Positions 5,574-64,000 of a DNA stretch of 64,000 bases are shown one piece after another. This DNA is from Octopus vulgaris (lineage: Eukaryota), in NCBI GenBank assembly GCA_951406725.2, contig OX597831.1, positions 3,286,001 through 3,350,000 on the forward strand, given 5' to 3'. The notes under the pieces are model-generated. The model had not been told where the DNA came from and ran no database searches. It saw nothing but the letters and a program-made list of their open reading frames with translations. A program made the translations under genes and the position numbers. The stretch's first letter is position 1. Every line of letters starts with the position of its first letter.

Positions 5574-8500
5574 AACTTAAACTCACAGATGGGACTATCC
5601 ACAATACACAAGATCGCCACAACAAATAGACCCAAGGTGGACACCACTGGCAACAACTTACGCATCACCTCGATGCTCCTAATGAATATCAGAGGACTGC
5701 TAACACTTTCTTAGGAGACCTTTTTGCATGCAATCAATTCTTATGCATAGCACTTACGGAAACACACCTGAAACTGGACATAGCAGATGCGGAAATACAC
5801 ATACCACAGTATGTTGTATTACGGACCGATAGAAAAGAAAGGAGTCATGGTGGAGTTGCTATGTACATCCTCGAGGACCTCACACCCCAGGTCCTTTTGT
5901 CATACTCAAATTCGGTGTGTGATACACTAATTGTACATATAAGGCAACTTGGTGTAGTTATATGTGCTACATATCGCCCTCCAGATGCTCCAAGCCATGT
6001 AGGCAAGTTTGAAGACTGCCTTACAAAATAGAAGTTCTAATCACATTAGAACAACACATAAGTGTGCTTCTTATGGTAGACTTCAATCTGCCCAATGTCA
6101 GATGGCCCAAGGGCCTTTCTCTCCCAGGAATGACACGATGCGAACGAGGACAGGCGAGGTCCCTCCTGAACCTCATCAACACTCTGTACATGGAGCAAAT
6201 AATACTCCAACCAACCAACCAGGGCAGGTAACATACTGGATCTCTGCTTCACAAATAATATGGATCTCATCCATAATGTGAAAGTGACACCGACACTGCT
6301 CTCGGATCACAACATGGTAGAGATGACCATGTACGGGCCAAAGGAAAGCATGGACATGCAGTCTACAAGAAACTCTCAGAATCTTTCCAGCTTGAACTTC
6401 CATAAGGCAAACTGGAAACAAATTGAGAAAGAGATCCTCAAACAAAACTGGCTTGAATGTCTCTCCTCGCCAGGCATCGACATGAAACTTCAACAATTCA
6501 TGTCTGTAATGCAAGCCATATGCTACAAATGTGTCCCAGAGAGAAAGGCCACTGTACAGAAGAACAAAATCCCCAGATAGAGGAAAATTCTTATGAGACG
6601 GCGTACAAGTTTCAAATCGCCTAAACAAACAAATTGAAAGCAGTGAAAAGTCCCGCCTGAAAATAAAACTGTTGGAAATCGAAAAATGTCTGCAACGCTC
6701 CCATGAAAAAGAAAGTGCAGACAAAGAAGCCTGGGCTATAGACAACATAAAATCTAACCCCAGAGCTTTCTACAAGGTTGCCAAAGAAACAGCTACGGTG
6801 CACTGTAGGATAGGGCCACTCCTTGAAAAAGATGGTACACTCACAGGAAATCCAATGAGGATAAGTGAAATATTAAATGAGCAATTCAAAAGTATTTTCA
6901 CTCCACTCCTAGGGCATTTTCAAGTCAGCAATCCAACTGACTTCTTTACCACTGCCGATATAAAATCAGAGGCAATGATGATTGATTACATCAATATAAA
7001 GGAAGATGATGTAATAAAGGCTATAGATGAAATGAACCCAAACTCAGCTACTGGCCCCGATGGATTCCCAGCAATCCTTCCTAAAAGTATGTAAGAGAGT
7101 CCTAACAAGACCACTGCAGTTCCTCTTTCAGAGCTTCCTTGCTACTGGCAAACTTCCAAGAAAACTGAAAGACGGTAAAATATGCCCTATTCATAAAGGA
7201 GGTAGCAGAGCGGAGGCCAAGAACTACAGACCTATCTCTCTGACCTCACACATCAGCAAGGTCATAGAACGAATGGTCAGAAGGAAACTAATTGCCTTTC
7301 TTGAAGAAAATAACTTGCAGCCTGACACCCAACATGGTTTCCGAACAGGAAGAAGCTGCCTAACTCAGCTCCTACAACACTATGACTGGGTGCTGAAACA
7401 ACTGCTCAACCACGCAAATGTGGAAGTGATATGTCTCGACTTTGCAAAAGCCTTTGATAAAGTCGATCATGGAATGATATGTCACAAACTGCGTGATCTT
7501 GGCATAGCTGGAAAATTCGGAGAATGGCTTCATGACTTTCTGAAGGATAGAAGTCAGGTGGTAGTAGCCAATGGGGCCACCTCCATTAACATGCGAATAA
7601 TGAGCGGTGTTCCGCAGGGCATTGTTTTGGGACCACTACTGTTCATAATGGCCCTCTCGGACATGCCCTCAGCCACGCAGAGAGCCACGATCACAAGTTA
7701 TGCAGATGATACAAAAGTTTCACTGGTAATACAGAACCCTGAAGACACTATGCACCTGCAATGTGAGCTGGACAAAATATACAAGTGGGCTGAAAAGAAT
7801 AGCATGCAGTTCAATGCTGAAAAGTTTCAAGCTTTATGCTATCAGCATGCAAAACTAAATGCAATACCCAATAAGTACACTGGACCTGGAAGGATTGCAA
7901 TCCCAGAGGCACAATCAGTGCGAGACCTGGGTATTTACATGAGTGATGATGCAACCTTTCATGTGGATGTTGCTAAATTGGCAATGAAATGTAGGTGGCT
8001 GACCGGATGGATTCTTAGAACCTTTAGAACAAGAGACCAGGAAACCATGATGGTCCTCTGGAGGACACTTGTCCTAAACCACTTTGACTATTGCTCTCAG
8101 CTATGGTCACCATCCAGTGTCAAGTTAATCACAGAACTTGAGGCGATCCAACGAAGAAGATAGCCTCTGTGCAGCATATAAGCTACTGGGAAAGACTCAA
8201 GAGATTAAGTCTCTATTCCTTAGAGTGTAGGCGAGAAAGATATGCCATGATATACATCTGGAAGATGCTAGAAGGACTTGTCCCAAACTTTGGCATTGAG
8301 TGTTACACAAATGCCAGAACTGGGTGCCACTGCATAGTGCCAAGGACTCCAAATTTGCCATCAAGATGTAGGACAAGATACTGTGATAGCCTGGGCTTCC
8401 GAGGCCCACAGCTCTTCAATATCCTCCCGAAGAACCTAAGAGACCTGCATGGGGTGGATGCAGATGTCTTTAAAATAAAACTGGATCTCTTCTTGTCAGG

Positions 8501-8689
8501 TGTCCCAGATAAACCAACTTCACGGCAGGAGGTGCAGATGAGGGCAGCTGCATCGAACTCTCTCATGCACCAAATGGCAATTGCTAAAAAGCATTCATGA
8601 AGTAAAATCATGTAGCAACACCAAATGGCGGTGCCCCAACATGGCCACAGCTTGTGAGCTGAAACTAGATAAAAAAATAAAAAATAAAA
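5574..8689 (+). mobile_element. CR1/L2-group non-LTR retrotransposon, near-complete ORF2 (APE endonuclease + RT), inactivated by frameshifts and stops (copy 2)
   Basis: APE motifs LMNIRGL, ALTETHL, RTDR..GGVA, YRPP and SDHN at 5680-6315. RT motifs NYRPISLTS, QHGFR, LDFAKAFDKV, GVPQG.VLGP, YADD and RDLG in 7060..8163. C-terminal YWERL..L.LYSL..RRER, then 3' UTR and A-rich tail. Exact clade not determined. Confidence 0.95.
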
Positions 8690-11960: not shown

Positions 11961-12510
11961 TGAGGCGATCCAACGAATCTACAGGAAGAAGATAGCCTCT
12001 GTGCAGCATATAAGCTATTGGGAAAGACTCAAGAGATTGAGACTCTATTCCTTAGAGCGTAGGCGAGAGAGATATGCCATGGTATTCATCTGGAAAATCT
12101 TAGAAGGACTTGTCCCAAACTTTGGCATCGAGAGTTACAGAAATGCCAGAACTGGGTGCCACTGCATAGTGCCAAGGACTCCAAATTTGCCATCAAGATG
12201 TAGGGCAAGATACTGTGATAGCCTGGGCTTCCGAGGCCCACAACTCTTCAATATCCTCCCGAAGAACCTAAGAGACCTGCATGGGGTGGATACAGATGTT
12301 TTTAAAATGAAACTGGATCTCTTCTTGTCAGGTGTCCCAGATAAACCAACTTCACGGCAGGAGGTGCAGATGAGGGCAGCTGCATCGAACTCTCTCATGC
12401 ACCAAATGGCAATTGCTAAAAAGCACTCGTGAAGTAAAATCATGTAACAACACCAAATGGCGGTGCCCCAGCATGGCCATAGCTTGTGAGCTGAAACTAG
12501 ATAAATAAAA

Positions 12511-12560: not shown

Positions 12561-15228
12561 AAAGTTGTTAGGGCAAAGAATCAGGCCTGGAAAGCCCAGA
12601 AGGATGGTGGTAGCAGGGAACGGGACAAGGTAGCCAGAATGGAGCCTGGGCGGCAGGTATACATAGCCAAGGGCGAAGCAGAAAAGAAGAAGTTTTCCAA
12701 CGTCTAGAGACGTGAGGACGAAAGAACTGAGATATTTCGGATTGCAAGACAGTGTGCGCGAGAAAATTGCGATGTCACAGGAGAGAAATGTGTTCCAGTG
12801 GATGATGGTTCACTTGCTTTTAATGATTCTGAAAAGAAAGAGGCTTGGAGAAGCCATTATGAAATACTGCTGAATGTGGAGAATGAATGGGAGGAGGAGA
12901 TCCTGCCAACTGTTGACCCAGTAGAAGGACCAGCTATCCTAATAAACAGCTCCCTAGTAGATAGAGCAATTAAGGGTATGAAGCCAGGAAAAACCCCTGG
13001 CCCATCAGGAATCACTGCTGAGATGCTTAAAGCATCTGTTGATGTGGGCTTTGGCCTAGTCACACGCATCGTAAACCAGGTAGTACATAACGGAGTCATA
13101 CCCAATGACTGGCGTAGCAGCACCATAGTCAACTGCTACAAGGGTAAAGGTGATGCTTTAGATAGAAATAACTACAGGGGTTTTAAACTGCTGGATCATT
13201 TGATGAAGGTCACATAGTCCATCTCATTAGGGAGAGAGTCTGCTTAGATGAGATGCAGTTCGGTTTTGTTCCGGGTAGAAGCACCACTGATGCCATACTC
13301 CTGGTTTGACTACTGCAGGAGAAATACCTATTTAAAGATAAAACCCTCTACTTAGCTTTAGTGGACATGGAGGAAGCCTTTGACAGGGTCCCCCGATCCC
13401 TTATCTGGTGTGCAATGCGGAAACTGGAGATTGACGAATGGTTGATAAGGGCTGTACAGGCCCTATACAGAGAGGCCGTTAGTAAGGTTAGGATTAGCAA
13501 CGAGTATAGTGAAGAATTCCGGGTAGAAGTAGGGGTCCACCAAGGTTCAGCCCTTAGTCCCCTTCTATTCATCATAGTCCTCCAGGCAATAACAGAAGAA
13601 TTCAAAACAGGTTGCCTCTGGGAGCTCCTGTATACTGATGACCTGGCCCACATAGCAGAATCACTACCGGAAATAGAAAAGAAATTTCGGGTGTGGAAGC
13701 TAGGTTTAGAATCAAAAGGCTTTAGAGTAAATGTAGCAAAGACCAAAGTTATAGTAAGCAGAAAGGCGAACTCGTCACACATACCCTCATGTAGGTGGCC
13801 CTGCTTGATCTGTAGAAAAGGTGTAGGTAGAAACTTCATAAGATGTACCCAGTGTAAGCTATGGACGCATAAGAGGTGCAGCAACATCAAAGGAAAACTA
13901 ACTGAGAAGATAGCTTTCATGTGCGGCAGATGCACAGGGGCAATAGACACCACAGATACTCAGAAAACAGATTCCATCACATTCCAGGGGGAGAAACTAG
14001 AAGTAGTTGATAGTTTCCGCTACCTAGGTGGCCAAGTTAGTAGTGGAGGTGGATGCTCAGAGAGTGTCACCACTAGAATATGAATAGCCTGGGCAAAGTT
14101 TAGAAAGCTCCTAACCCTGACAAAGGGTCTCTCGCTCAGATTGAAAGGTAGATTGTACGATGCATGTGTGCAAACTGCCATGCTTCAGGGTAGTGAAACA
14201 TGGGCTGTGACCGCAGAGGACATGCGTAGGCTTGAAAGAAAGGAAGCTAGCATGGTCCGCTGGATGTGTAATGTCAGTGTGCACACACGACAGAGTGTAA
14301 GCGCCCTGAGAGAAATGCTGGACATAAGAAGCATCAGATGTGGTGTGCAAGAGAGACGTTTGCGCTGGTATGGTCATGTACTGTGGATGGATGAGGAGAG
14401 ATGTGTGAAAACGTGCCACTCCTAAACAGTTGAAGGTATCAGGGGGAGAGGTAGACCCAGGAAGACATGAGATGGGGTGGCCAAGCATGACCGAACGTTG
14501 GGCCTCACAGAGGCAATGACGAAAGACCGAGATCTCTGGAGATATGCTGTGACTGCAAAGACCCAACAAATGATGTGAGTTCATGGCTTGTTTCCTGCAC
14601 CAGTTTCGCATAACCCCAGCTCATCCAAAGTACCTTGGATTGCAGAACGACATGCTGTGCTTACCTTCAATGGTAGACTGACCTGTTATGCTTGAGAAGA
14701 CCTATTGAGTCAAGTACATAAACATCAAGATCAAAATAAATATCAAATGGTGATTGTAGTTGTGATACCTGTGGCGGTGGCACGTAAAATGCATCATCTA
14801 TGTGTGGCTGATGTATGTATATATTTATGTATGTATGTATGTATGTATATACGTATGTATACATATGTATGTATGTATATGTGTATATACGTATGTATAC
14901 ATATGTATGTATATATATGCATGTATATGTATGTATATATATATGCATGTATATGTATGTATATATATGCATATATATGCATGTATATATATGCATGTAT
15001 ACATATGTATATATATATATATATATGCTTCGTCTGGCACCTGTGTCGGTGGCACATAAAATCACCCACTACACTCTCGGAGTGGTTGCCGTTAGGAAGG
15101 GCATCCAGCTGTAGAAACACTGCCAGATCTGACCAGCCTGGTGCAGCCTTCGGGCTTGCCAGACCCCAGTTGAACCGTCCAACCCATGCTAGCATGGAAA
15201 GCGGACGTTAAACGATGATGATGATGAT
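12561..15228 (+). mobile_element. 5'-truncated RTE-clade LINE: RT pseudogene, 3' UTR and (GAT)n tail
   Basis: RT motifs GK.PGPSGI..EML, IPNDW, KGKGD...NYRG.KLL, QFGFVPGRSTTDAI, DMEEAFDRVPR, GVHQGSALSPLLF, LLYTDDL, FRYLG, GSETW and RRLRWYGHV, broken by stops and frameshifts. The 3' UTR runs through a TA tract (about 14813-15026) into the GGACGTTAAAC(GAT)n tail. Confidence 0.92.
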
Positions 15229-22784: not shown

Positions 22785-23086
22785 AAAGCACCATCCGAAC
22801 GTGGCCAATGCCAGCGCTGCCTCTACTGGCTTCCGTGCCGGTGGCACGTTAAAAGCACCAACCGATCGTGGCCGATGCCAGACCCCTCCCTGGCACCTGT
22901 GCAGGTGGCACGTAAAAAGCACCCACTACACTCGTGGAGTGGTTGGCGTTAGGAAGGGCATCCAGCTGTAGAAACACTGCCAGATTAGACTGGAGCCTGG
23001 TGCAGCCCCTGACTTCCCAGACCCCGGTCGAACCGTCCAACCCGTGCTAACGTGGAAAACGGACGTTAAACGATGATGATGATGAT
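22785..23086 (+). mobile_element. RTE 3'-tail repeat ((GAT)n-tailed, SINE-like)
   Basis: GGTGGCACGTAAAAAGCACC modules, GGTTGGCGTTAGGAAGGGCATCCAGCTG and GGACGTTAAAC(GAT)5; matches 15030-15228. Confidence 0.92.
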
Positions 23087-23724
23087 AAATCATGCAATTT
23101 CTTAATCAGATGTATTTGTTGATACCTGAGCAGGTATAGCAGTTGTCATTATAACTACTATTTCTAAAGTGTATTGTAAATGCTTTAATGCAAGGAACAA
23201 TAAAATATGAGATGAGTTATGTGCTAATAATGTTTGTCGATTTAAATAAAATCTTTGACTGGTAGGTGCATAAATATTTATTACTCAACATTTAAAAGAC
23301 ATAAAAAAGTTTGTAAATAACTTTATTTATAAGCACTTTGCTGGAACTGAAGTTATTCTGCAGAAACTTAGTTTCATAGTTGGTTAGTTGGACAGACACT
23401 CGCAGGGTAATCTTATATACAACCCAGATGAAATTCCTTAGTGTCTCTATACGTGAAATAGTTTTAAAACCACTTCCCTTCCTAGAAAATCATAAAAAGG
23501 AGTTGAACTGGTTTGAAACCAGTAAAAACTGGATAGATTCAAATTTACTCAAAACAATCTTCAGGTTTGAAGGAGTTTGCTTATTTAAGAGGGGTGACTA
23601 GCAGGAAAGAATTTGACAATATTCCAAGAAGATTGGATACCCGAGTTCACTGCTTCAAATTTGGATATAAGTTCTCCAATCTCTGTAGGTATGTTGGCCA
23701 TAAGCTACAGAATAGAGACTTGCT

Positions 23725-29013: not shown

Positions 29014-31067
29014 GTTTTTGTTGGGTGTGTTTGAACAATGCTGCCAACTTTGGTGAAGGCATGCCTAACATCATTTCTACTTATTCTCACTCCTTTCTCT
29101 TCTGGCTGGTTTAATTGCATGGAGTGAACATTAACATATATTTCATCTTTTGTTTCATTTTCTTAAGTTGAGATTTCTATTTTATTTTGATTTTTTTTTA
29201 TAGCATGAAATTATTAAATTATGTTTTTATTTCCTTTCATTTTTCCTTTTTTTCATCTTAACCTAAGATTTAATTTTTGTTTGAAATATTTATATGGTAA
29301 TAAATAAACATTGATATTTATTTTCATGTCTTCTTTTGTTGAAAATTCTTTGAATCTGTTGTGTAAATCCTAAATTTAAAAAAAAAAAAAATTTTTTTAT
29401 TATATTTTTTTTTAGCTAATAAGCTTTTTTTTGTTTTTTCATATTATAGATTTAAGTATTTGGTTTCATTTTTCCTAATTTATTTTTATTTAATGATCCT
29501 TTATAAATTTCCTTGTGCCTCTTATGCTTAGTGTGTCTTTAGAATTTAATCTATCGAAATTGTTAATATATAATTCTTTGTTTAGCAATATAATTTCACA
29601 AGTCATTTGAGAAGTGTTTCTTTTCTTCCCTTGATTCTAAGTCACTATAAGGGGAATAGATTTGGGCCAGTATTATACAGATCAATGCTGAACTTGTTTT
29701 CCTACAATCTGAAACTGTATTTGCAGCTCTAATTCTTTACCATTTTTGCATTAATGTCCTCTGCAGCACATGTTAATATCTTAGATTGCACCCGCTCAGT
29801 ATTGATGTTCTTTCCTACTCTCTCTCTCTCTCTCTCTTTCTCCTCAATCACTATCACTTTCCCTCTTTCTCTCTCTCTCTTTCTTTTCTCTCTAGCAGTA
29901 TATAAAGTATAATCAAAAGAAATTAGACAAATTAAGCAGTGTTATTCTTGTTTGAGTCTTCTTCTTATGCAAATATTTATATATCATTTAATACTTTATA
30001 TTTATCCTTCATTGTGGTAACTGTTCTCTTCGATTGGATATTTATATTTAGAAATTAGATGGACTAATTTTCTGAAACAGTTTATAAGTTTCTTTTCTTT
30101 GTTTGAGATATTAGGCATTGTCCAATACAGTTTTCTCTCTTATTACTTTGTTAAATCAAACCTTAGAATTTCAATTTTTCTAGTGAGTAATGTACATTTA
30201 AAATTATTTTCCAATTAGCTAATTACTTTGGTAGTTAATAATTTCCACTTGTAGGTTTAAATTTTCCTTTGATAGTTTCCATAAAATATTTTTTTTTTTG
30301 TTTTTATTCAGTTGTCACTTTGGAATTAGTTGTTCTGTTATGAAAATTTGATGTCTTTCTAGAATTTAGCGAGTTGATTATTTGCACTCATTTGAGGGTG
30401 ACAGTCTGATTTACAGTCAGATTGCTTATCCTCTACTCAGTGTTATATATGCAGCCAGCTTTCATTGGCGGCAACCATTTCCATATTGGGAAACATTTTG
30501 TGGATCTTTATAGTTTGGTATGCTGCTATGTCAAATTGCATACAGTACCAACTGCTAATTGTGTACATTTTATACAAGTTGTTGTTCTATATTTTACTTG
30601 AGATAAAAAACAACAAAAACATTTCACATCATACAAGAAAACAATTCTTTATTGTCAGCTGCTGTTACAATGACTTGTCAAAGATTTTACAAAATTTATT
30701 TTCATTCCGTTTGTGAAATGATTTAACTATATTTAACATCTGAAATGACTTTGAGGATGTTACTAAGATAAGACATTGACCCTGCCATTTGACTTGTGAT
30801 TATAAAGTAAAATTGAGAAGTATCGAGATAGATATTTAGATTTACCGTTTTTTAAAAAAAAGTTTCTCAATCTGTTTTGAAATGATATAGATTTAGCCAA
30901 ATGTACCCATTAATAGTGGTTGGGTGGGCGGGTCTTTTTCCCTTTCTTTCTTTTCTTTCCTGTCTAACAGTAGTTCTATAATAATTTTTCATTTTTGCTT
31001 CTTCCTCAGTCGGTGATCTGCTTTAGATTTGCTTTTACCTTTGACACACTCTTTCCTTTGCTTCTAG

Positions 31068-32255
31068 GAAGTTTCCATCGACAACAGAACCCTGCAGGGA
31101 TGCAGAATTATCCCCAGCAAAATGTGTACAATGGACCCAACCAAATGAGTTCGTTATCTGGAGGATCTTTGTATAGTAGTATGCCCATCAATAGAAATAT
31201 GTCCTCAGCTAACTACAATAGTGCAAGCTACCCACAATCTGGCAATATGAACTCACAATGTAGTAATTTTAACAGTCATAGTAGTACTGCAGTTTCCGGA
31301 GGACCAAATGTTCATGGAGGACCCTGCTCCAATATGCCAAACCATTCGATGAATTCCATGCAGCAGCAGCAGCAGCAACAAGCATCACCTCTTCCCTCGC
31401 ATCCTCACCCACCCCACCCTTCAACCGGAGGTGCCAACACCATGACCATGTCACCAAGTGGCCAGTGTGTAACACCACCTATTGTACCTGGAGTTAAAGG
31501 TGCACATGCAGCAGCGCAGGCAGCTATGATAGCTGCTGCTAATACTGCTGCTGCCACTCGTTGTCATCAGTTACGGACAGGATCATCTAATCAGCCAGCC
31601 AGAATGTATCCTCCAGGAATGGCACCTGCTGGTCCTTCATCCAGTCACATTGGATCAATGAACTTCTCTTCTGCCATCAACAATATTCCTAGTTCATCTG
31701 GTCAGTTTCCTTCTTCAGTGTCTCAAACAACAGTGCCTAATTCTATGACTCAACAATCAAATTCTTGTAGCCCAACTAGTCCCTCAACCAGCAGCACACA
31801 CAGTAACAACACCACTAGTGCTAATTCCAATCGAACATTGGATCCAATGAAACAAACTCCCTCTTCCTTGTCTAAAGAAGGATGTTTACCAAGTAACTGT
31901 GCCAGCAGTTTTAGTGCGATGATTCCACCGACAGCCAACTCGGGTATGGACGGCATAGGAATCCCAACCCAAGGTGATAGCACAGAGGAAGGCAAAGCTG
32001 TTGACGAGAACAGTGAATGTAACAGTGATGGCAGTCGCATCATCCCACCTGGTAGTCTAGATTCATCTGGTGTTGTTGGACCAACTGTTTCAAGTTCCAT
32101 GTCAACTCGCCATAGTTCTGCTGCTGGCCCAGCTACTTCCTCCTCAGTGCCTGTCAGCCAACATGTGTGCGTGAGCAGCCAGGCTCCTAGTTCAAATAAT
32201 TTATCCTTAGAAGACAGTCACAACACAACCACTTCTACTGCAAATTCTAGTGCAG
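31068..32255 (+). CDS. ARID1: ARID1/osa coding exon D (1188 nt, phase 1 to 1), S/N/P/Q-rich
   Basis: Lies in ORF 30995..32308, with CTTCTAG acceptor and CAG|GTAACC donor. Contains KGAHAAAQAAMIAAAN, similar to ARID1B KAQEAAAAVMQAAAN, and a Q7 run. Confidence 0.88.
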
Positions 32256-34373
32256 GTAACCAATTGCTTTGGTCTTGTCTCTTCAGCACAGCTTTTTGCT
32301 TCTGTTAGTCTAGCCTCTCTTTGACTCTTCTTGCCCATTTTGTTTTATTTTTCCATTGACAAATTCTTAGTTTATTTGATCCCTTTGAGTTATTCTCTGG
32401 CAGAAAACGTAACATTTTCACATTGACATCAGAGAAAAATCACTACAATGAGAACATGTCTTGCTTTGCTTTTTTTTTGTGTCCTTGGATGTTTTTTATT
32501 TTCATTTTTTGTTTATAAACTTCAGTTATGTGTGTGCATTAATACATAACTCAGAGTTGCTTTCTGAATGTTTTCCATTCTTCCTAGACTAGTCTCTGTT
32601 TTTTTCTTTTATTTTTTCTTCTAATGATTGGTGCATGGAATGTTGTTGTCAAGTTCTGTTTTGAGTTATTTTGTGCCTTTTGAGCAATAGTTAAGACTAA
32701 ATAGCTGGGAAAATAGTTTAGAAACCCCTTGTAACTTTCCTTGATTTCTAGGAACTGTCTATGTTGTTCAGTGGAATGAGCTGTCACTTTAAACGTGACC
32801 TGCAACTTTATTTTGTATTCTATTTTGTTTCTCTACATTTTGTCACTTTGTTGTGTTTTTCTTTGTATTCAAAGAACATTATTGTATTTGTTTTCGTATT
32901 TTGTTTTTGTATAAATTTGATTAAAAGAATTATTAATCTAGCTTTATTATTCTACCATAATGTGTAATTTCTTCTCGAATCGAAGCATTTTAGTGCATCT
33001 TTTTATACTGAAGCTGACAAGGAATATTTATTTTATCGAATTCCATTAATAATGAGCACATTCTCTATAATGCCTTCTAAACCTCTTCTCTTGGAAGTGG
33101 CTCCGATCACTTTATTTACAAAAATTCAGAGAATAAATTTACACAAATCATATTTTATGTCCAGCCATTTGTTATTCTGTGACATAATCTACATTGCTTC
33201 ACTGTTATTCTATAATAGAAGAAGAAAACTTGAGAATAAATTAAAAGTTGGATTAAAAATTCTGATTCCTTATATATTTTCAGTGTTTCCTGCAGCCTTT
33301 AAGATTATTTATCTTTTAATGCTCTCTAGTTACATAGTTTACTGCTAATTGATTCTGCAGCCAAAAAAAAAAGACAGCTTGTTTGTTACTTAAAATATTA
33401 AAAGTAAAGAAAGTTATGTGAAATTATTAGTTTTTTTAAAAAAAATTTTATCGTGGATCTGTTGTAAGTTTGGAATTATTTTAATAACTAATATTTTGTT
33501 CTCAACTATTTTAATATAGGCAAAAGACATATTTTCCACAATAACTTTTAAAATAATGTTTTTGCCATCCTGAATACTAATTATTTAATTAATTTTCTAT
33601 TTTATTTTCATTAATATCTGAAGATATGAAATGAAATATTCTTCATTCAATTTATTTTCTCTTTGTAGTATAATTTCACATATTGGTAGAATATTTAATT
33701 AGAAAAATTATATTTGAAATAAAGTCTCATTCAACTTTGTTTTTAACTTCTAACAAAACATTATTTATTATTGTCCACTCGGCTATTAGAATAGCTTTTT
33801 AATGATCTTGTTTTTCTTCATAATTTATTTTTATTAATTCATTTTTTAAATATTTTCTTGTAAGCTTAAAATCAAAACTGTATTAATTGACTTCATTGAG
33901 ATTTCAGCATTACTGATTGAGTTGTTGTTTGGTATTCATTCATTCATTCATTCATAAGTTCCCCACCTTGGAATCGACAGTTAGTCTCTTGTTTCAGAAG
34001 AAATCCACTTAGCAAAATTTGCCCAAAGCAGCTGTTGCTATTACATTAGATATGGCTTAAATCACTGCTAAGTAAGACCACTGTGCTCTGCTGCATCTGT
34101 GATTTCTTTGAAACTTGGCCCTTAGTTGCAGTGAAATTGTTTACTGTCAATTTAATGCAGAATCTTCTATCTTACGAAGTTTAAGTTCCGATCAGTTCTT
34201 TGGTTGGTTAATTAATTGTTAGAAATTAAAAAGGCTTTTATTGTTAGTTTTATTAAGAAGAAAGACTCCTGTTTTTGCTTAGTCCTTTTTATTTTTTATT
34301 GATATAAATTCCAGCTTAAATTTTTGATATTGATTTAATTGAGCATTAGCTACATGTATTTTGAATTCTTATA

Positions 34374-34603
34374 AGCACCAACCGATCGTGGCCAATGCCA
34401 GACCCCCCCCCTGGCACCTGTGCAGGTGGCACGTAAAAAGCACCCACTACACTCGCGGAATGGTTGGCGTTAGGAAGGGCATCCAGCTGTTGAAACACTG
34501 CCAGATCAGACTGGAGCCTGGTGCTGCCCCTGGCTTCCCAGACCCCGGTCGAACCGTCCAACCCGTGCTAGCGCGGAAAACGGACGTTAAACGATGATGA
34601 TGA
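34374..34603 (+). mobile_element. RTE 3'-tail repeat with 12-bp TSD
   Basis: Same family as 22785-23086. TSD TGAAT(T/C)CTTATA at 34362-34373 and 34604-34615. Confidence 0.93.
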
Positions 34604-35137
34604 TGAATCCTTATATACAAGTCCACAGTAAGGAGGAAATGGGGCACGCATTAACAATACAAATGACATGAAAGGGCTACACAGATGAATGAACATCAGA
34701 ACAAAGTTGTAGTCCCTATCGTTTTTATAGGTGTCACATTTCATATGCAAATAACATGTTGACGTGTTTGTGAATCCAAAACTTAAGTTTTTATGGAACT
34801 TGTGAAATAGTTTTAGGAATCAAAATAGCTTGTATTATTTTTGTTTTTGGTTATAATATAGCTAATGTCAGTTGTCATGTGATTATAAATCTTTTTATAT
34901 TTTTTAATAGGCACATCAAACTAGGTCCTTCACATTTGCTTGATTTAATATTTTTTTCATTTTACAGGTTAATTTGTATTTATTTGATTATTTACATAAA
35001 CTCAGTGTGTTTTATATATCTGGAGCTTAAATGAAACTGAGCTACTAAGCTTAATATGTTGGACTGTGTGACTATAAATGTATATTTTTTGAGTTACTAG
35101 GAAAACCTCAGTGTTTGGGTTTCTTTTGCTTCTTCAG

Positions 35138-36466: not shown

Positions 36467-36744
36467 TGCCAGCGCCGCCTCTACTGGCTTCCGTGCCGGT
36501 GGCACATAAAATACACCAATCCGACCGTGGCCGTTGCCAGCCTTGCCTGGCACCTGTGCAGGTGGCACGTAAAAAGCACCCACTACACTTGCGGAGTGGT
36601 TGGCGTTAGGAAGGGCATCCAGCCGTAGAAACTCTGCCAGATCAGACTGGAGCCTGGAGCAGCCCCTGGCTTCCCAGACCCCAGTCGAACTGTCCAACCC
36701 GTGCTAGCATGGAGAACGGACGTTAAACGATGATGATGATGATG
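36467..36744 (+). mobile_element. RTE 3'-tail repeat
   Basis: Two GGTGGCAC(G/A)TAAAA..CACC modules and a (GAT)5 tail; possible ATGAAA TSD. Confidence 0.92.
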
Positions 36745-38143
36745 AAACAATGTGGTCTGCTAGATATGCAGCATTTGTATGCTCAAGTAAATTACATGGA
36801 TTGTTAGAAAACATTAGTTGATGTTCATGCTTTAAAGCATGTTTGAATAAAAAGTATATGTGTTTGTGGATGCGTAGTAGTACGGCAAGATAATTTAGCA
36901 AGAAGTAATTAGGATAGAATTTGGCATTATGGAAGAGGTGATGTGGGATCAAAATGCATACAGGGAATCTGTTGCAAATTTGCTCACTTCATAACACTAT
37001 GCAAACAAATGCAAAGTAGATGTGTATGTCCACACATATATATGTTCTACTTCATTGAAGTTAATACTGTGAAATATATTGTTTTATTTTGAGGTAGGTG
37101 TTGTCTTTAGTGAATACTTATTAAAAGCACCGATTTCTTTTGAATGTCAGAAGTCCCTGAACTGTTTCTGGAAACAGTATAGTAATGCAACACATAGTTA
37201 GGGGTTCTTTGCATACGCACACACTAATATAATAAACAATGGATTTTTATATATTTTATAATATCTTGCCTAAGCAGAAAGCACAGTTTTTTGGTGGGGA
37301 GGGAATATAGTTTTATTATATAATTTCACATTTATTTTACCAACCTTCTGAGGGACGAAAGACAAAATTGACTGATTTCAGAAACATTATGATCTATAAT
37401 TGCACAAAAAAAAAAAATTGTTATAATTTTACGTAGCAATAAGATATTCTCAAAGTTGGTATTAGAATCTTTTTTTCTTATTATCTGAAACTCCCAATTA
37501 CACACACACACTCAAGAAGAAAAAAAACAAAACATGTTTTCCAACTGGTTTTCTTCAGTTTTCCCATTTAATGTATTCCTATGAATGTATGTGTAACAAC
37601 ACAGCCTACTTTTCATTCTACAGTTTTGTATCTTTCTTCTCTTTTTCATTCTTCTCTCTATCAAAAGTAATCTAATTTTATGTTGATACTGTCTATAATT
37701 TAGCAACAAATTTCTTAAAATTTGAAATAGTTTTGAATTTCAGCATTTTAAATGCTAACATCCAAAATTGTTACAAATTCCATTCTATACAAAAATCAAG
37801 ATATCTGGTATAAGAATTTCATTTAATGTTTTTATTCCATGAACGAATGCCATTAATTCTCTAACTTAATTTATATATTTTTCTTTCCATGTATGAGAGT
37901 AGATTTGTCTATTTCTATTTTTTTAAAACCATTTTAAATATGTTTGGAATAAATTTCCTCAAATAAATTAAGATCCCTGCTCTCATTTGTTAGGTATAAA
38001 TAACACTACATTATACCCAGTTGGGTTTTGTTTATTGATGAAGGCAACATTTGGTATTTTTCTTTCATTCTTCCATCCAACATTACCAAATTGTTGCTAT
38101 TTTTATAACGAGAAGGTTCAGTGCCAGTCTATGTTCATTCTAG

Positions 38144-43986: not shown

Positions 43987-44103
43987 GTGAGTTTGAAATT
44001 CTATTCGTTAATAATGCAACATGACTTTTTTCAGCCCCCTTTTTTTTTTTTTATCTTTCCGTTAATGTCATTTTATTTATTTTGTTTTGTTCCTTCATTT
44101 CAG

Positions 44104-44995
44104 CTGGCTCCCAAGGCTCTTCTCAAGATGCATTCCGACCCCCTAGCACACCTAACAGCAACAGCCAAGGAATGGACCCATTTTCTCCAAACATGCAATC
44201 CTATATAGGAGGCCCCAATTCTGAATCTAACATTGGTCCAATGAGCTCAACTATGATGCCTCACGGAAATATGATGAACAGTATGAACCCTTCCAATAGC
44301 ATGCTGGCTCAAAATTCTGTGGGTGGTCCAAATTCAAGTATGCTCCCTCCTCACCATATGTCTTCTGGACCAAACAGTATGCATGGCAATATGATGCCAG
44401 GGAACATGCCCCCTTCTAATAATATGATGGGGAATTCGTATGCCCCAAACAACATGATGCCAAACAATATGGGTCCAAATAATAATATGATGGCAAATAA
44501 CATGGCAACATCAAATAACAACATGCTTGGTAACAACATGGGACCTTCTAACAACAATTTATCTTCCAACATGAACCAGGCACCTCAAAATGAAAGTGAC
44601 AGTGTTAGTGTTCAGGACCCATTTGCAGATGAGCCATGTGCCAGTGGCCCAAGTTACCCCAGGCAGAGTATGAATTCGCAAATGCCACCCTACACTGGCA
44701 TGCAATCACAGACTACCATGTCTGGTAATTATGGCTTCAATCGTCAAAATGCCCAGCACGGAATGTCACCATACTCAAATATGAGCCAACAGTCTATGAA
44801 CAACTTTTCTGAGAACCGAATTGGTCAGAATGAACAGTATAATGATGCCTATCGAAGGACAATGAGTATGGAGAATTTCAATAACAATAATAGAAATTCA
44901 GAAAATTTTGGTCCTGCAGCTACTCAATTTGGACCTCGGAATAGTCAAGTATCAGGTGCTCAGTTCCCATTTGGACCTCAGTTTGACCGTGAACG
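44104..44995 (+). CDS. ARID1: ARID1/osa coding exon I (892 nt, phase 1 to 2), N/M/G/P-rich
   Basis: Lies in ORF 44082..44999, with TTTCAG acceptor and CG|GTAAGT donor. GSQGS..PSTPNS and the conserved VSVQDPFAD motif. Confidence 0.9.
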
Positions 44996-45664
44996 GTAAG
45001 TATACATTTGTTGTTTTTCTCCTTTCTTTTCTTATTTTTAAAGATTACAGTTGTTTGTGAAATGTTAGTATGTGTATGCCTGTCTGTGAATAGTCGAGTG
45101 TTGTAGAGGTTGCTTAGTATCTGGTTTTGATTGTTAGCTACTTAACTTACTATGTGAGAGTCTTTATCACCTGTCCTTTGATGGATGACTGATTACAGTG
45201 GAGCTGAAAATATAGCATGTTTATTCTTCCTTTTCTATTTTTAAATTTTTGTTTTACATGTATTTTTTTTTTTTCCATGCTGTAGTATATAATATAGTAT
45301 ACTTTTGTTAGCACAATTATGTTCAGCTGTGAAGTATTTGTCAATTAGATAATTAAAAAAAAAAACAAAAAAAAAAACAGGCAGAGATATGTGGGGTGAG
45401 TGGGTGTGCAACATACTAGTAATAATGTTTGAACTAGTGAGTTCATAGTACTTCAGCACCTTTCAAGCTTTCATCAATTTTTTCTTATGTGTATTAAATA
45501 TTTATTTGTAAAATTATGTCTTTAGAATAATGATGTGTTTGCCAGGTTTAAAGGATGGTACTTTGATGTTTTTACACAATTCCTGTGTAAATCTGTGTTG
45601 GGTGTGATTGTTTGGATATTTGGATATTTGCTTGCGAAAGAGTGTAACTCAACAGTAATGTTGA

Positions 45665-63132: not shown

Positions 63133-63451
63133 GCACGTAAAAAGCACCATCCGAATCGTGTCCGAAGCCAGTGCCGCCTCGACTGGCTTCCGTGCCGGTG
63201 GCACGTAAAATGCACCAATCCGACTGTGGCCGATGCCAGCCTCGCCTGGCACCAGTACAGGTGGCACGTAAAAAGCACCCACTACACTCATGGAGTGGTT
63301 GGCGTTAGGAAGGGCATCCAGCTGTAGAAACATTGCCAGATCAGACTGGAGCCTGGTGCAGCCTTCTGGCTTCCCAGATCCTCGGTCAAACCGTCCAACC
63401 CATGCTAGCATGGAGAACGGACGTTAAACGATGATGATGATGATGATGATG
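63133..63451 (+). mobile_element. RTE 3'-tail repeat with three GCACGTAAAA.GCACC modules
   Basis: Modules at 63133, 63201 and 63264, then the conserved body and a (GAT)n tail. Confidence 0.93.
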
Positions 63452-64000
63452 ATATATATATATATTTTGTGAAGCTGGTTTTTACAGATATTATAACCAG
63501 TTCACCCCGTCAGCCAAAATTCTTAATCATTTTTGTTACCAGAAGCATTTTTCTGTGAAGAAATTTGAAAAATGATTATCGAGCATAAGATAGTGAATCT
63601 GTTCCAGTTATCCTTGTTTCTATGCTATTTAAGCTAAGCAATTCTGCAATGCTTCTGAATATGGTAGACTTAAGGTGCAGTTGTTATATTTTCTTAATGG
63701 TACGAACCACTGTATGTTGCCTAGTTGGTAAGTGACATGGAAAACATTGATAATTTGCATCTAATAATATTGTTTAGTGAATAGATTCCACTCAGCTTAA
63801 CTGTATTTTCCCCTTGCATTTGTCAGGCAGTCTCAACAAAATAAACTGTTCTTGTTGACTGATTAACTATGGCACAAAATCTCACTTATTAATTAGCAAT
63901 TAGTTTTGGTGCTAATTTTTGGTAAAAAGTTCTCAAATTTGAATTTTTTTTTTTTTTTTTTTAGACTATTGTATAATTTTTCTTTTCTCTTAAACTTTCA

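What the first reader, a model, noticed from the sequence alone, without database searches (positions are those of the whole stretch)
63133..63451. Tandem ~65-bp module in the RTE 3' UTR: hairpin plus compact H-type pseudoknot, followed by a palindromic terminal stem
Seen: each module has a GCCAG...CTGGC hairpin with a variable loop. It is followed by CGTGC-c-GGTG-GCACG-TAAAA(A/T)G-CACC (for example 63191-63216 and 22834-22859): stem 1 CGTGC/GCACG, stem 2 GGTG/CACC and an A-rich connecting loop. Variants keep the pairing (TGTGC/GCACG; TGTGT/GCACA near 15042). The terminus folds CGTCC..CCATGC-TA-GCATGG..GGACG before (GAT)n. Established: a 5-bp/short-stem pseudoknot with an A-rich loop resembles luteoviral frameshift pseudoknots. 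Inference: an uncharacterised, repeated structured-RNA element (RT recruitment, nuclease block or processing site) that could explain why short copies often start at module boundaries (22785, 34374, 63133). The competing fold is a simple CGTGCC/GGCACG hairpin.
Basis: partly seen in the sequence, partly recalled or inferred. Interest (0 to 1): 0.7.

Follow-up and report, generated by a model that had tools for sequence, protein, structure and literature searches.

The report
Repeated RNA knot in retrotransposon tail
The tail of a very common jumping gene, in what is likely an octopus genome, carries one to over twenty copies of a short unit whose conserved core likely folds into a tiny RNA knot that would help protect or translate the element's RNA, but the unit does not set where short copies begin.

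Summary
63133-63453 is a 5'-truncated 3' UTR of an abundant RTE-clade LINE (22,522 exact matches to the last module's 3' half). Its 60-68-nt modules end in a 26-nt core (298 cores in 1.46 Mb, 1 in the control). The core likely folds as a compact H-type pseudoknot: the single loop-1 base takes all four letters while the nine stem pairs hold in 68-79 of 81 copies, and an older family shifts the stem junction without losing a pair. Formal covariation is not significant and nothing was probed. The terminal stem covaries. No frameshift context, no Rfam hit. The sequence behind the last knot is a 5'-UTR domain in related RTEs (39 of 44 identical), so the tail was likely captured from a bipartite element. 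A SINE-like family shares that tail without the knot (0 of 13), so the knot is probably an mRNA accessory, not the RT handle. The scan found this module before on other DNA. New variant of a known kind.

The parts
63133..63453 (+). 5'-truncated copy of the 3' UTR of an RTE-clade LINE, ending in (GAT)8
   Evidence: 96-97% identical copies lie directly behind the RTE stop codon in longer elements
63133..63148 (+). Cut-off 3' half of a core (stem 1 3' strand, loop 3, stem 2 3' strand); the copy starts inside the knot
   Evidence: phase -1
63164..63190 (+). Hairpin of module 2 (9 bp, 9-nt loop)
   Evidence: pairs kept across copies
63191..63216 (+). Intact core, predicted H-type pseudoknot: stem 1 63191-63195/63201-63205, loop 1 63196, stem 2 63197-63200/63213-63216, A-rich loop 3 63206-63212
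   Evidence: prediction, not probed
63234..63251 (+). Hairpin of the last module (6 bp, 6-nt loop)
63254..63279 (+). Last core; best conserved position in the family, but stem 1 is broken in this copy
   Evidence: 63257 reads G in nearly all laid contigs
63280..63296 (+). Linker with a small hairpin
   Evidence: 67% identical between families A and B
63297..63338 (+). Conserved domain that lies in the 5' UTR of related RTEs and behind the head of SINE-like elements
   Evidence: 39 of 44 columns identical to L254; absent from the 5' regions of L124-L126
63392..63423 (+). Terminal stem: outer 5 bp (63392-63396/63419-63423) and inner 5-bp hairpin (63400-63413)
   Evidence: compensatory changes in a subfamily and in L254
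63430..63453 (+). (GAT)8 tail
22785..23095 (+). Second truncated copy with cores at 22834-22859 and 22898-22923
34374..34606 (+). Truncated copy with a core at 34419-34444
36468..36745 (+). Truncated copy with cores at 36492-36517 and 36555-36580
12708..15228 (+). Decayed RTE (RT with PHD insert) with its 3' UTR, cores at 14770-14795 and 15042-15066, interrupted by (TA)n

Best explanation
The stretch is the cut-off 3' UTR of an RTE-clade LINE whose repeated unit ends in a conserved 26-nt core that likely folds as a compact H-type RNA pseudoknot and likely serves the element's own messenger RNA as a stabilising or translation-helping accessory, in the way the tandem pseudoknots of tobacco mosaic virus do. 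Shown: LINE context, tandem units, conservation of the core, free loop-1 base, conserved terminal stem, 5' ends independent of the units, and the 5'-UTR origin of the domain behind the last core. Inferred: the lineage captured a bipartite tail (5'-leader block plus 3' end) as its new 3' UTR; the RT grips the part shared with the SINE-like family (domain plus terminal stem); the last knot is kept by selection; upstream copies arise by template slips and decay. Odds: the knot forms about 0.6; given that, an mRNA-level role is the likeliest single function.
For: Core 78% identical between families A and B against 53% for the spacer behind and 25% for the sequence in front. In 81 unbiased last modules, picked by flanking sequence, loop 1 is C39/A22/T14/G6 while the nine stem pairs hold in 68-79; genome-wide list C32/A26/T20/G19 in 97 of 100 rows (hand count). 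Junction switch: where the junction base is C, it pairs with the last loop-3 base, which is G in 94 of 100 rows against 87 of 120 in the G-form, and the freed stem-1 base drifts to A/G in 12 of 100 rows against 0 of 97. One A-U and two G-U subfamily changes in stem 2; one U-A and U-G changes in stem 1; a six-copy variant keeps both stems by a one-base register shift. Stem-1 3' strand decays in the module that lost its partner. SINE-like family shares the tail but has no core (0 of 13; 6 of 13 with a SINE head piece upstream). No AATAAA in 34 of 35 young UTRs. TMV: the knot nearest the 3' structure is the essential one and the domain can replace poly(A) (PMC4683447, passages).
Against: Covariation is not significant: 36-129 of 500 shuffles reach the observed values. 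The three inner stem-1 pairs never co-vary. The outer stem-2 pair is U-U in 19 of 100 C-form rows and unpaired in 37 of 100; the outer stem-1 pair is broken in several subfamilies. Copies are not independent, so the Fisher values overstate. Energy is a tie: knot -7.3 to -10.7 against -9.0 kcal/mol for the hairpin at 63191 (recalled loop penalties). A related RTE works with a 3' UTR of about 30 nt and no knot. No RNA reads, no probing, no test of stability or translation; absence of AATAAA does not show absence of poly(A).
Confidence: 0.35

Rival explanations
1. The knot is an accessory docking site for the element's own protein during reverse transcription, as in A-clade R2 elements.
For: R2 protein reads a pseudoknot-hinge-stem in the last 65 nt of its 3' UTR (PMC11601368, passages). 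The last core is the best kept and abuts the conserved tail.
Against: The core ends about 150 nt before the (GAT)n tail; the SINE-like family with the same tail lacks it (0 of 13); L254 ends in the terminal stem alone.
Confidence: 0.22
2. The core is a neutral relic of a captured 5' leader that hitch-hikes next to the essential tail and is multiplied by slippage.
For: Copy number runs from 1 to 23; distal modules decay; 190-nt blocks are duplicated as freely; relatives lack it at the 3' end.
Against: Core conservation (78%) exceeds that of the spacer behind it (53%), which lies nearer the 3' end; changes fall on loop 1 and the end of loop 3.
Confidence: 0.2
3. The core is kept as a primary sequence or a single hairpin (stem 1 or stem 2 alone) bound by a protein, or as a DNA site (its reverse strand holds an RCGTG word; HIF-site likeness is recalled).
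For: Little true covariation; nested folds are as stable; the first module keeps stem 2 after losing stem 1.
Against: A single hairpin uses only half of the invariant bases; the 6-bp hairpin holds in 51 of 81 copies and 84% of cells, the upstream-CACC hairpin in 76%; subfamilies with CACA instead of CACG lose the RCGTG word.
Confidence: 0.16
4. The module blocks Xrn1 or is a processing site and so makes short RNAs that are copied as short elements.
For: 14 of 87 ends at -19..-14 against 8.2 expected (nominal p 0.03, one of six windows); small knot followed by a hairpin, as in coremin (PMC10321173, passages).
Against: Ends are uniform overall (chi-square p 0.15, Rayleigh 0.39, scan 0.41); the BWYV knot does not stall Xrn1 even with a second hairpin, and coremin needs a fixed loop-1 base and a YGAD/YGNNAD loop, which this core lacks.
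Confidence: 0.07

Closest known systems
Bipartite RTE-derived elements and SINE tails (Kojima 2018, PMC5786205; Kojima 2020, PMC7245038)
   Same: A conserved piece of an RTE 5' UTR joined to an RTE 3' end forms the tail.
   Different: Here the bipartite tail sits behind the ORF of an autonomous LINE, and the unit in front of it is amplified in tandem. Whether the domain is the same one as in Kojima's Fig. 2 or the Meta domain could not be tested (figures not held as text).
Upstream pseudoknot domain of tobacco mosaic virus (PMC4683447)
   Same: Tandem small pseudoknots between stop codon and a structured 3' end; the one nearest the end matters most.
   Different: No sequence relation tested or expected; knots here are spaced by hairpins, vary from 1 to 23, and no function is shown.
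A-clade R2 3' UTR pseudoknot-hinge-stem (PMC11601368)
   Same: Pseudoknot upstream of a terminal stem in a non-LTR retrotransposon 3' UTR.
   Different: R2 has one knot within 65 nt of the end, read by zinc fingers; here about 150 nt away, repeated, absent from the SINE-like family that shares the tail.
Luteoviral -1 frameshift pseudoknots (PLRV, BWYV; PMC5416846)
   Same: About 26 nt, short stems, A-rich loop crossing stem 1.
   Different: Non-coding position, no slippery heptamer (3 of 298), loop 1 is one free base instead of two.
RTE-clade LINEs of octopus (RTE-2_OV, PMC9115989)
   Same: Single APE-RT ORF, microsatellite end, high copy number.
   Different: RTE-2_OV is described with a C2H2 finger and a 3' UTR made mostly of microsatellite; this family has a PHD insert and the modular UTR. 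Identity with a named Repbase family was not testable.

Membership tests
RTE-clade LINE 3' UTR | Lies behind a single ORF with APE endonuclease and RT | tested here: met
   (PF00078, PF03372 on relatives; 1043-aa open frame in L124)
RTE-clade LINE 3' UTR | Microsatellite 3' end and variable 5' truncation | tested here: met
RTE-clade LINE 3' UTR | RT groups with the RTE clade in a tree | not tested
   No tree built; clade rests on domain order, tail and recalled likeness
H-type pseudoknot | Two crossing stems can form with sterically small loops | tested here: met
   (91% of cells paired)
H-type pseudoknot | Significant covariation in both stems | tested here: inconclusive
   One double change per stem; 36-129 of 500 shuffles; junction switch in favour, U-U subfamily against
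H-type pseudoknot | Both stems seen by probing or structure | not testable with these tools
   No probing data
Luteoviral frameshift pseudoknot | Slippery heptamer upstream within overlapping ORFs | tested here: not met
   3 of 298 cores; modules start 150 nt or more behind the stop
Luteoviral frameshift pseudoknot | Two-nt loop 1 and loop-stem triples | tested here: not met
   Loop 1 is one base of any letter; triples not testable
Xrn1-resistant RNA (coremin type) | YGAD or YGNNAD loop with fixed loop-1 base | tested here: not met
   Loop is N-G-G-U-G (definition from PMC10321173)
Xrn1-resistant RNA (coremin type) | 5' ends pile up just upstream of the structure | tested here: not met
   on DNA copies only; weak nominal excess at -19..-14; RNA ends not available
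HDV-like, twister or hammerhead ribozyme | Match to the Rfam model | tested here: not met
   7 matches at E<=10, all far below gathering, none a ribozyme
Bipartite RTE-derived tail | 5'-UTR-derived part joined to RTE 3' end | tested here: met
   39 of 44 columns to L254 5' UTR; terminal stem aligns to L254 3' end
MetaSINE Meta domain | Sequence match to the 66-bp Meta consensus | not testable with these tools
   Consensus is in a figure; supplement file 1 not searchable; the motif follows a tRNA-like head in L263, L268, L290

The most novel reading that the evidence does not exclude
Probability: 0.2. Interest if true: 0.72.

Novelty: new variant of a known kind. Interest (0 to 1): 0.42.

Why it matters
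How LINE RNAs that end in microsatellites are stabilised and translated is little studied, and RTE UTRs are being engineered for gene writing (PMC13708176, passages). A 26-nt knot with natural variants, a natural copy-number series and a SINE-like family lacking it gives a ready test. If the knot is neutral, the case still shows an autonomous LINE taking a bipartite tail.

Tried and rejected
Rfam scan: no family. Metagenome pattern scan: 3 matches; the two read (L121, L123) show no element context. Viral contigs: 0 matches for two patterns, 1 RT fragment. Raw reads of run X24: 3 reads only, no use; no raw RNA run was offered, so RNA ends and expression stay open; run X20 covers only the part behind the modules. 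First automatic 5'-end calls were noisy or bugged (8 ends; disregarded). A hand-curated set of 58 ends gave an excess at -6..-1 (13 of 58) that vanished in the larger automatic set (9 of 87, 8.2 expected). Sequence homology of the module to the L254 5' UTRs: significant for 1 of 8 comparisons only (4 of 500 shuffles; others 25-292), so not claimed. One search used a mis-registered outer stem and was redone. Target-site duplications: 1 adjacent case among 65 copies with a tail, uninformative. No octopus copy with the domain in front of an ORF start among 339 sites (1 hit, a neighbouring insertion). HDV-like fold of the module considered by eye and rejected. Not in print as far as searched: (open-licence library only; Repbase reports and subscription papers are not covered).

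Full report
Context. The window lies in a 2.8-Gb genome; size, about 30 large contigs and repeat content point to an octopus (inference). The finding is a 5'-truncated piece of a LINE: 50 listed matches to 63133-63440 include 40 full-length ones at 96-100%, and longer copies continue upstream into a stop codon and an RT ORF. Near-complete elements have one open frame of up to 1043 aa with RT and an inserted PHD finger; 1108 of 7986 scored proteins pass E 1e-50, many with the APE domain. The 3' half of the last module has 22,522 exact matches, 0 for the reversed control.

The module. In 1.464 Mb of unselected sequence there are 298 cores against 1 in reversed sequence. Spacing is mostly 60-68 nt; runs hold 1 to 23 cores; 68 ORF-linked UTRs hold 1 to 9 (some composites included). 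Older families repeat the bare core at 26-27 nt without the hairpin, so the core is the conserved unit. Between three family-A and three family-B copies identity is 25% upstream, 78% in the core, 67% in the linker, 90% in the domain behind, 53% in the spacer and 73% in the terminal stem.

Is it a pseudoknot? For: in 81 last modules chosen by flanks, loop 1 is C39/A22/T14/G6, and the nine pairs hold in 68-79 of 81, many failures being the G-to-A and C-to-T changes expected from CpG decay; the extra pair of the rival 6-bp hairpin holds in 51. The first 100 genome-wide rows give the same four-letter loop 1 (97 rows usable, hand count). In an older form the junction base is C instead of G: stem 1 loses a pair and stem 2 gains one. 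As this predicts, the last loop-3 base is G in 94 of 100 rows against 87 of 120 in the G-form, and the freed base is A or G in 12 of 100 rows against 0 of 97. These are counts of related copies, not of events. Subfamily changes include A-U and G-U in stem 2 and a register shift that keeps both stems in six copies (a seventh row is the normal form). Against: on 17 representative haplotypes (17 of 33 recurrent ones) 91% of cells pair, but shuffles reach the measures 36-129 times in 500; the outer stem-2 pair in the C-form is G-C 40, G-U 15, A-U 7, U-A 1, U-U 19, other 18 of 100 rows (hand count); one module alone gives such a knot in 23 of 300 shuffles, and the knot and the hairpin are within about 2 kcal/mol (recalled penalties). 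In this copy the last core is broken in stem 1. I put the knot at about 0.6.

Terminal stem. It folds well, each pair holds in 81-96 of 99 parsed tails out of 116, and on 7 sequences including a distant RTE 96% of cells pair with two double changes, 10 of 500 shuffles (seven rows, structure taken from one of them). The distant element (L254, animal DNA inside a bacterial bin, 53% protein identity) ends in this stem about 30 nt behind its ORF.

5' ends. Of 138 family-A copies in 1.544 Mb, 87 ends were kept and 51 dropped because the flank still matched element sequence; a few kept rows are visibly miscalled. Four 16-nt bins hold 22, 30, 16 and 18 ends (one outside the bins); chi-square p 0.15, Rayleigh 0.39, best-window scan 0.41. 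The 3' edge of the knot has 7 (10.9 expected); -19..-14 has 14 (8.2 expected, nominal p 0.03, one of six windows). The modules do not explain where short copies start.

Origin. The domain at 63297-63338 is in the 3' UTR here and not in the 5' regions of L124-L126, but lies before the ORF in both RTEs on L254 (39 of 44 columns identical) and behind a tRNA-like head in SINE-like copies of another animal. This is the 5'-part-plus-3'-end design of bipartite RTE tails (PMC5786205, parts 1-3 of 5 read, supplement searched; PMC7245038, passages). One of the two L254 leaders also has a compact knot of the same layout 105 nt before the domain (1 of 200 shuffles), the other a weak one (38 of 200); sequence homology to the module is not established. 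In the own genome a SINE-like family carries the same domain, terminal stem and (GAT)n but no core (0 of 13; 6 of 13 have a SINE head piece within 520 nt, one of them probably a separate insertion).

Mechanism. By the shared-tail rule for LINE-SINE pairs (PMC5786205, introduction), the RT handle should be the part common to both, which starts behind the knot. What only the coding partner keeps is more likely an mRNA element. The pattern of an essential last knot and dispensable upstream ones between stop codon and terminal structure matches the TMV upstream pseudoknot domain, which is reported to replace poly(A) (PMC4683447, passages, citing earlier work); 34 of 35 young UTRs lack AATAAA. This role is inferred, not shown. 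Rivals are R2-like docking (PMC11601368, passages), a neutral relic, a plain protein site, and an Xrn1 block (PMC10321173, passages). Frameshifting is excluded by context (PMC5416846, passages).

Literature. Also seen: PMC9115989, PMC13282606, PMC13295347, PMC13708176 (passages), PMC4824008 (parts 2-3 of 6; supplement file 1 not searchable and may bear on the Meta-domain question). Searches found no description of this module. Four earlier notes of this scan describe the same or a like motif on other DNA; they are unchecked and are not counted as support.

Verdict. Real, abundant, probably structured, function untested; a new variant of RTE tails. Interest 0.42.

Noticed in passing
window 13310-14083; L124: The RTE ORF carries a PHD finger inside the RT region, shared by many animal relatives.
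   Followed up: partly
window 63305-63338: The 5'-UTR-type domain may form its own small pseudoknot: the loop GGCA can pair with a downstream TGCC (222 of 339 sites read TGCCA; relatives have TGCT or TGCC).
   Followed up: partly
L047:5356-6770 region (G000:C18 about 3.511-3.513 Mb): One copy carries 23 tandem modules; another on C5 carries 12.
   Followed up: no
L008: A copy appears flanked by an unusually long duplication of target DNA (the 3' flank recurs about 170 nt upstream of the 5' end; seen by eye).
   Followed up: no
own-genome sample: (TA)n lies at the 5' junction of 14 and the 3' junction of 26 of 65 copies.
   Followed up: partly
L212-L241: An older subfamily duplicated core plus domain as a 100-nt unit behind a long pyrimidine-rich UTR.
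   Followed up: partly
window 30974-32308 and 44025-44999: Two long open frames rich in Ser, Pro, Asn and Met look like exons of a host gene (ARID1-like by recall; no Pfam match); several copies would be intronic and on the same strand.
   Followed up: no
window 6597-8600, 1239-1706, 12100-12430: Pieces of a second, CR1/L2-like LINE family (RT match) among long (TA)n tracts.
   Followed up: no
L254-L257: Animal LINE and SINE DNA lies inside bacterial genome bins of the species collection.
   Followed up: partly
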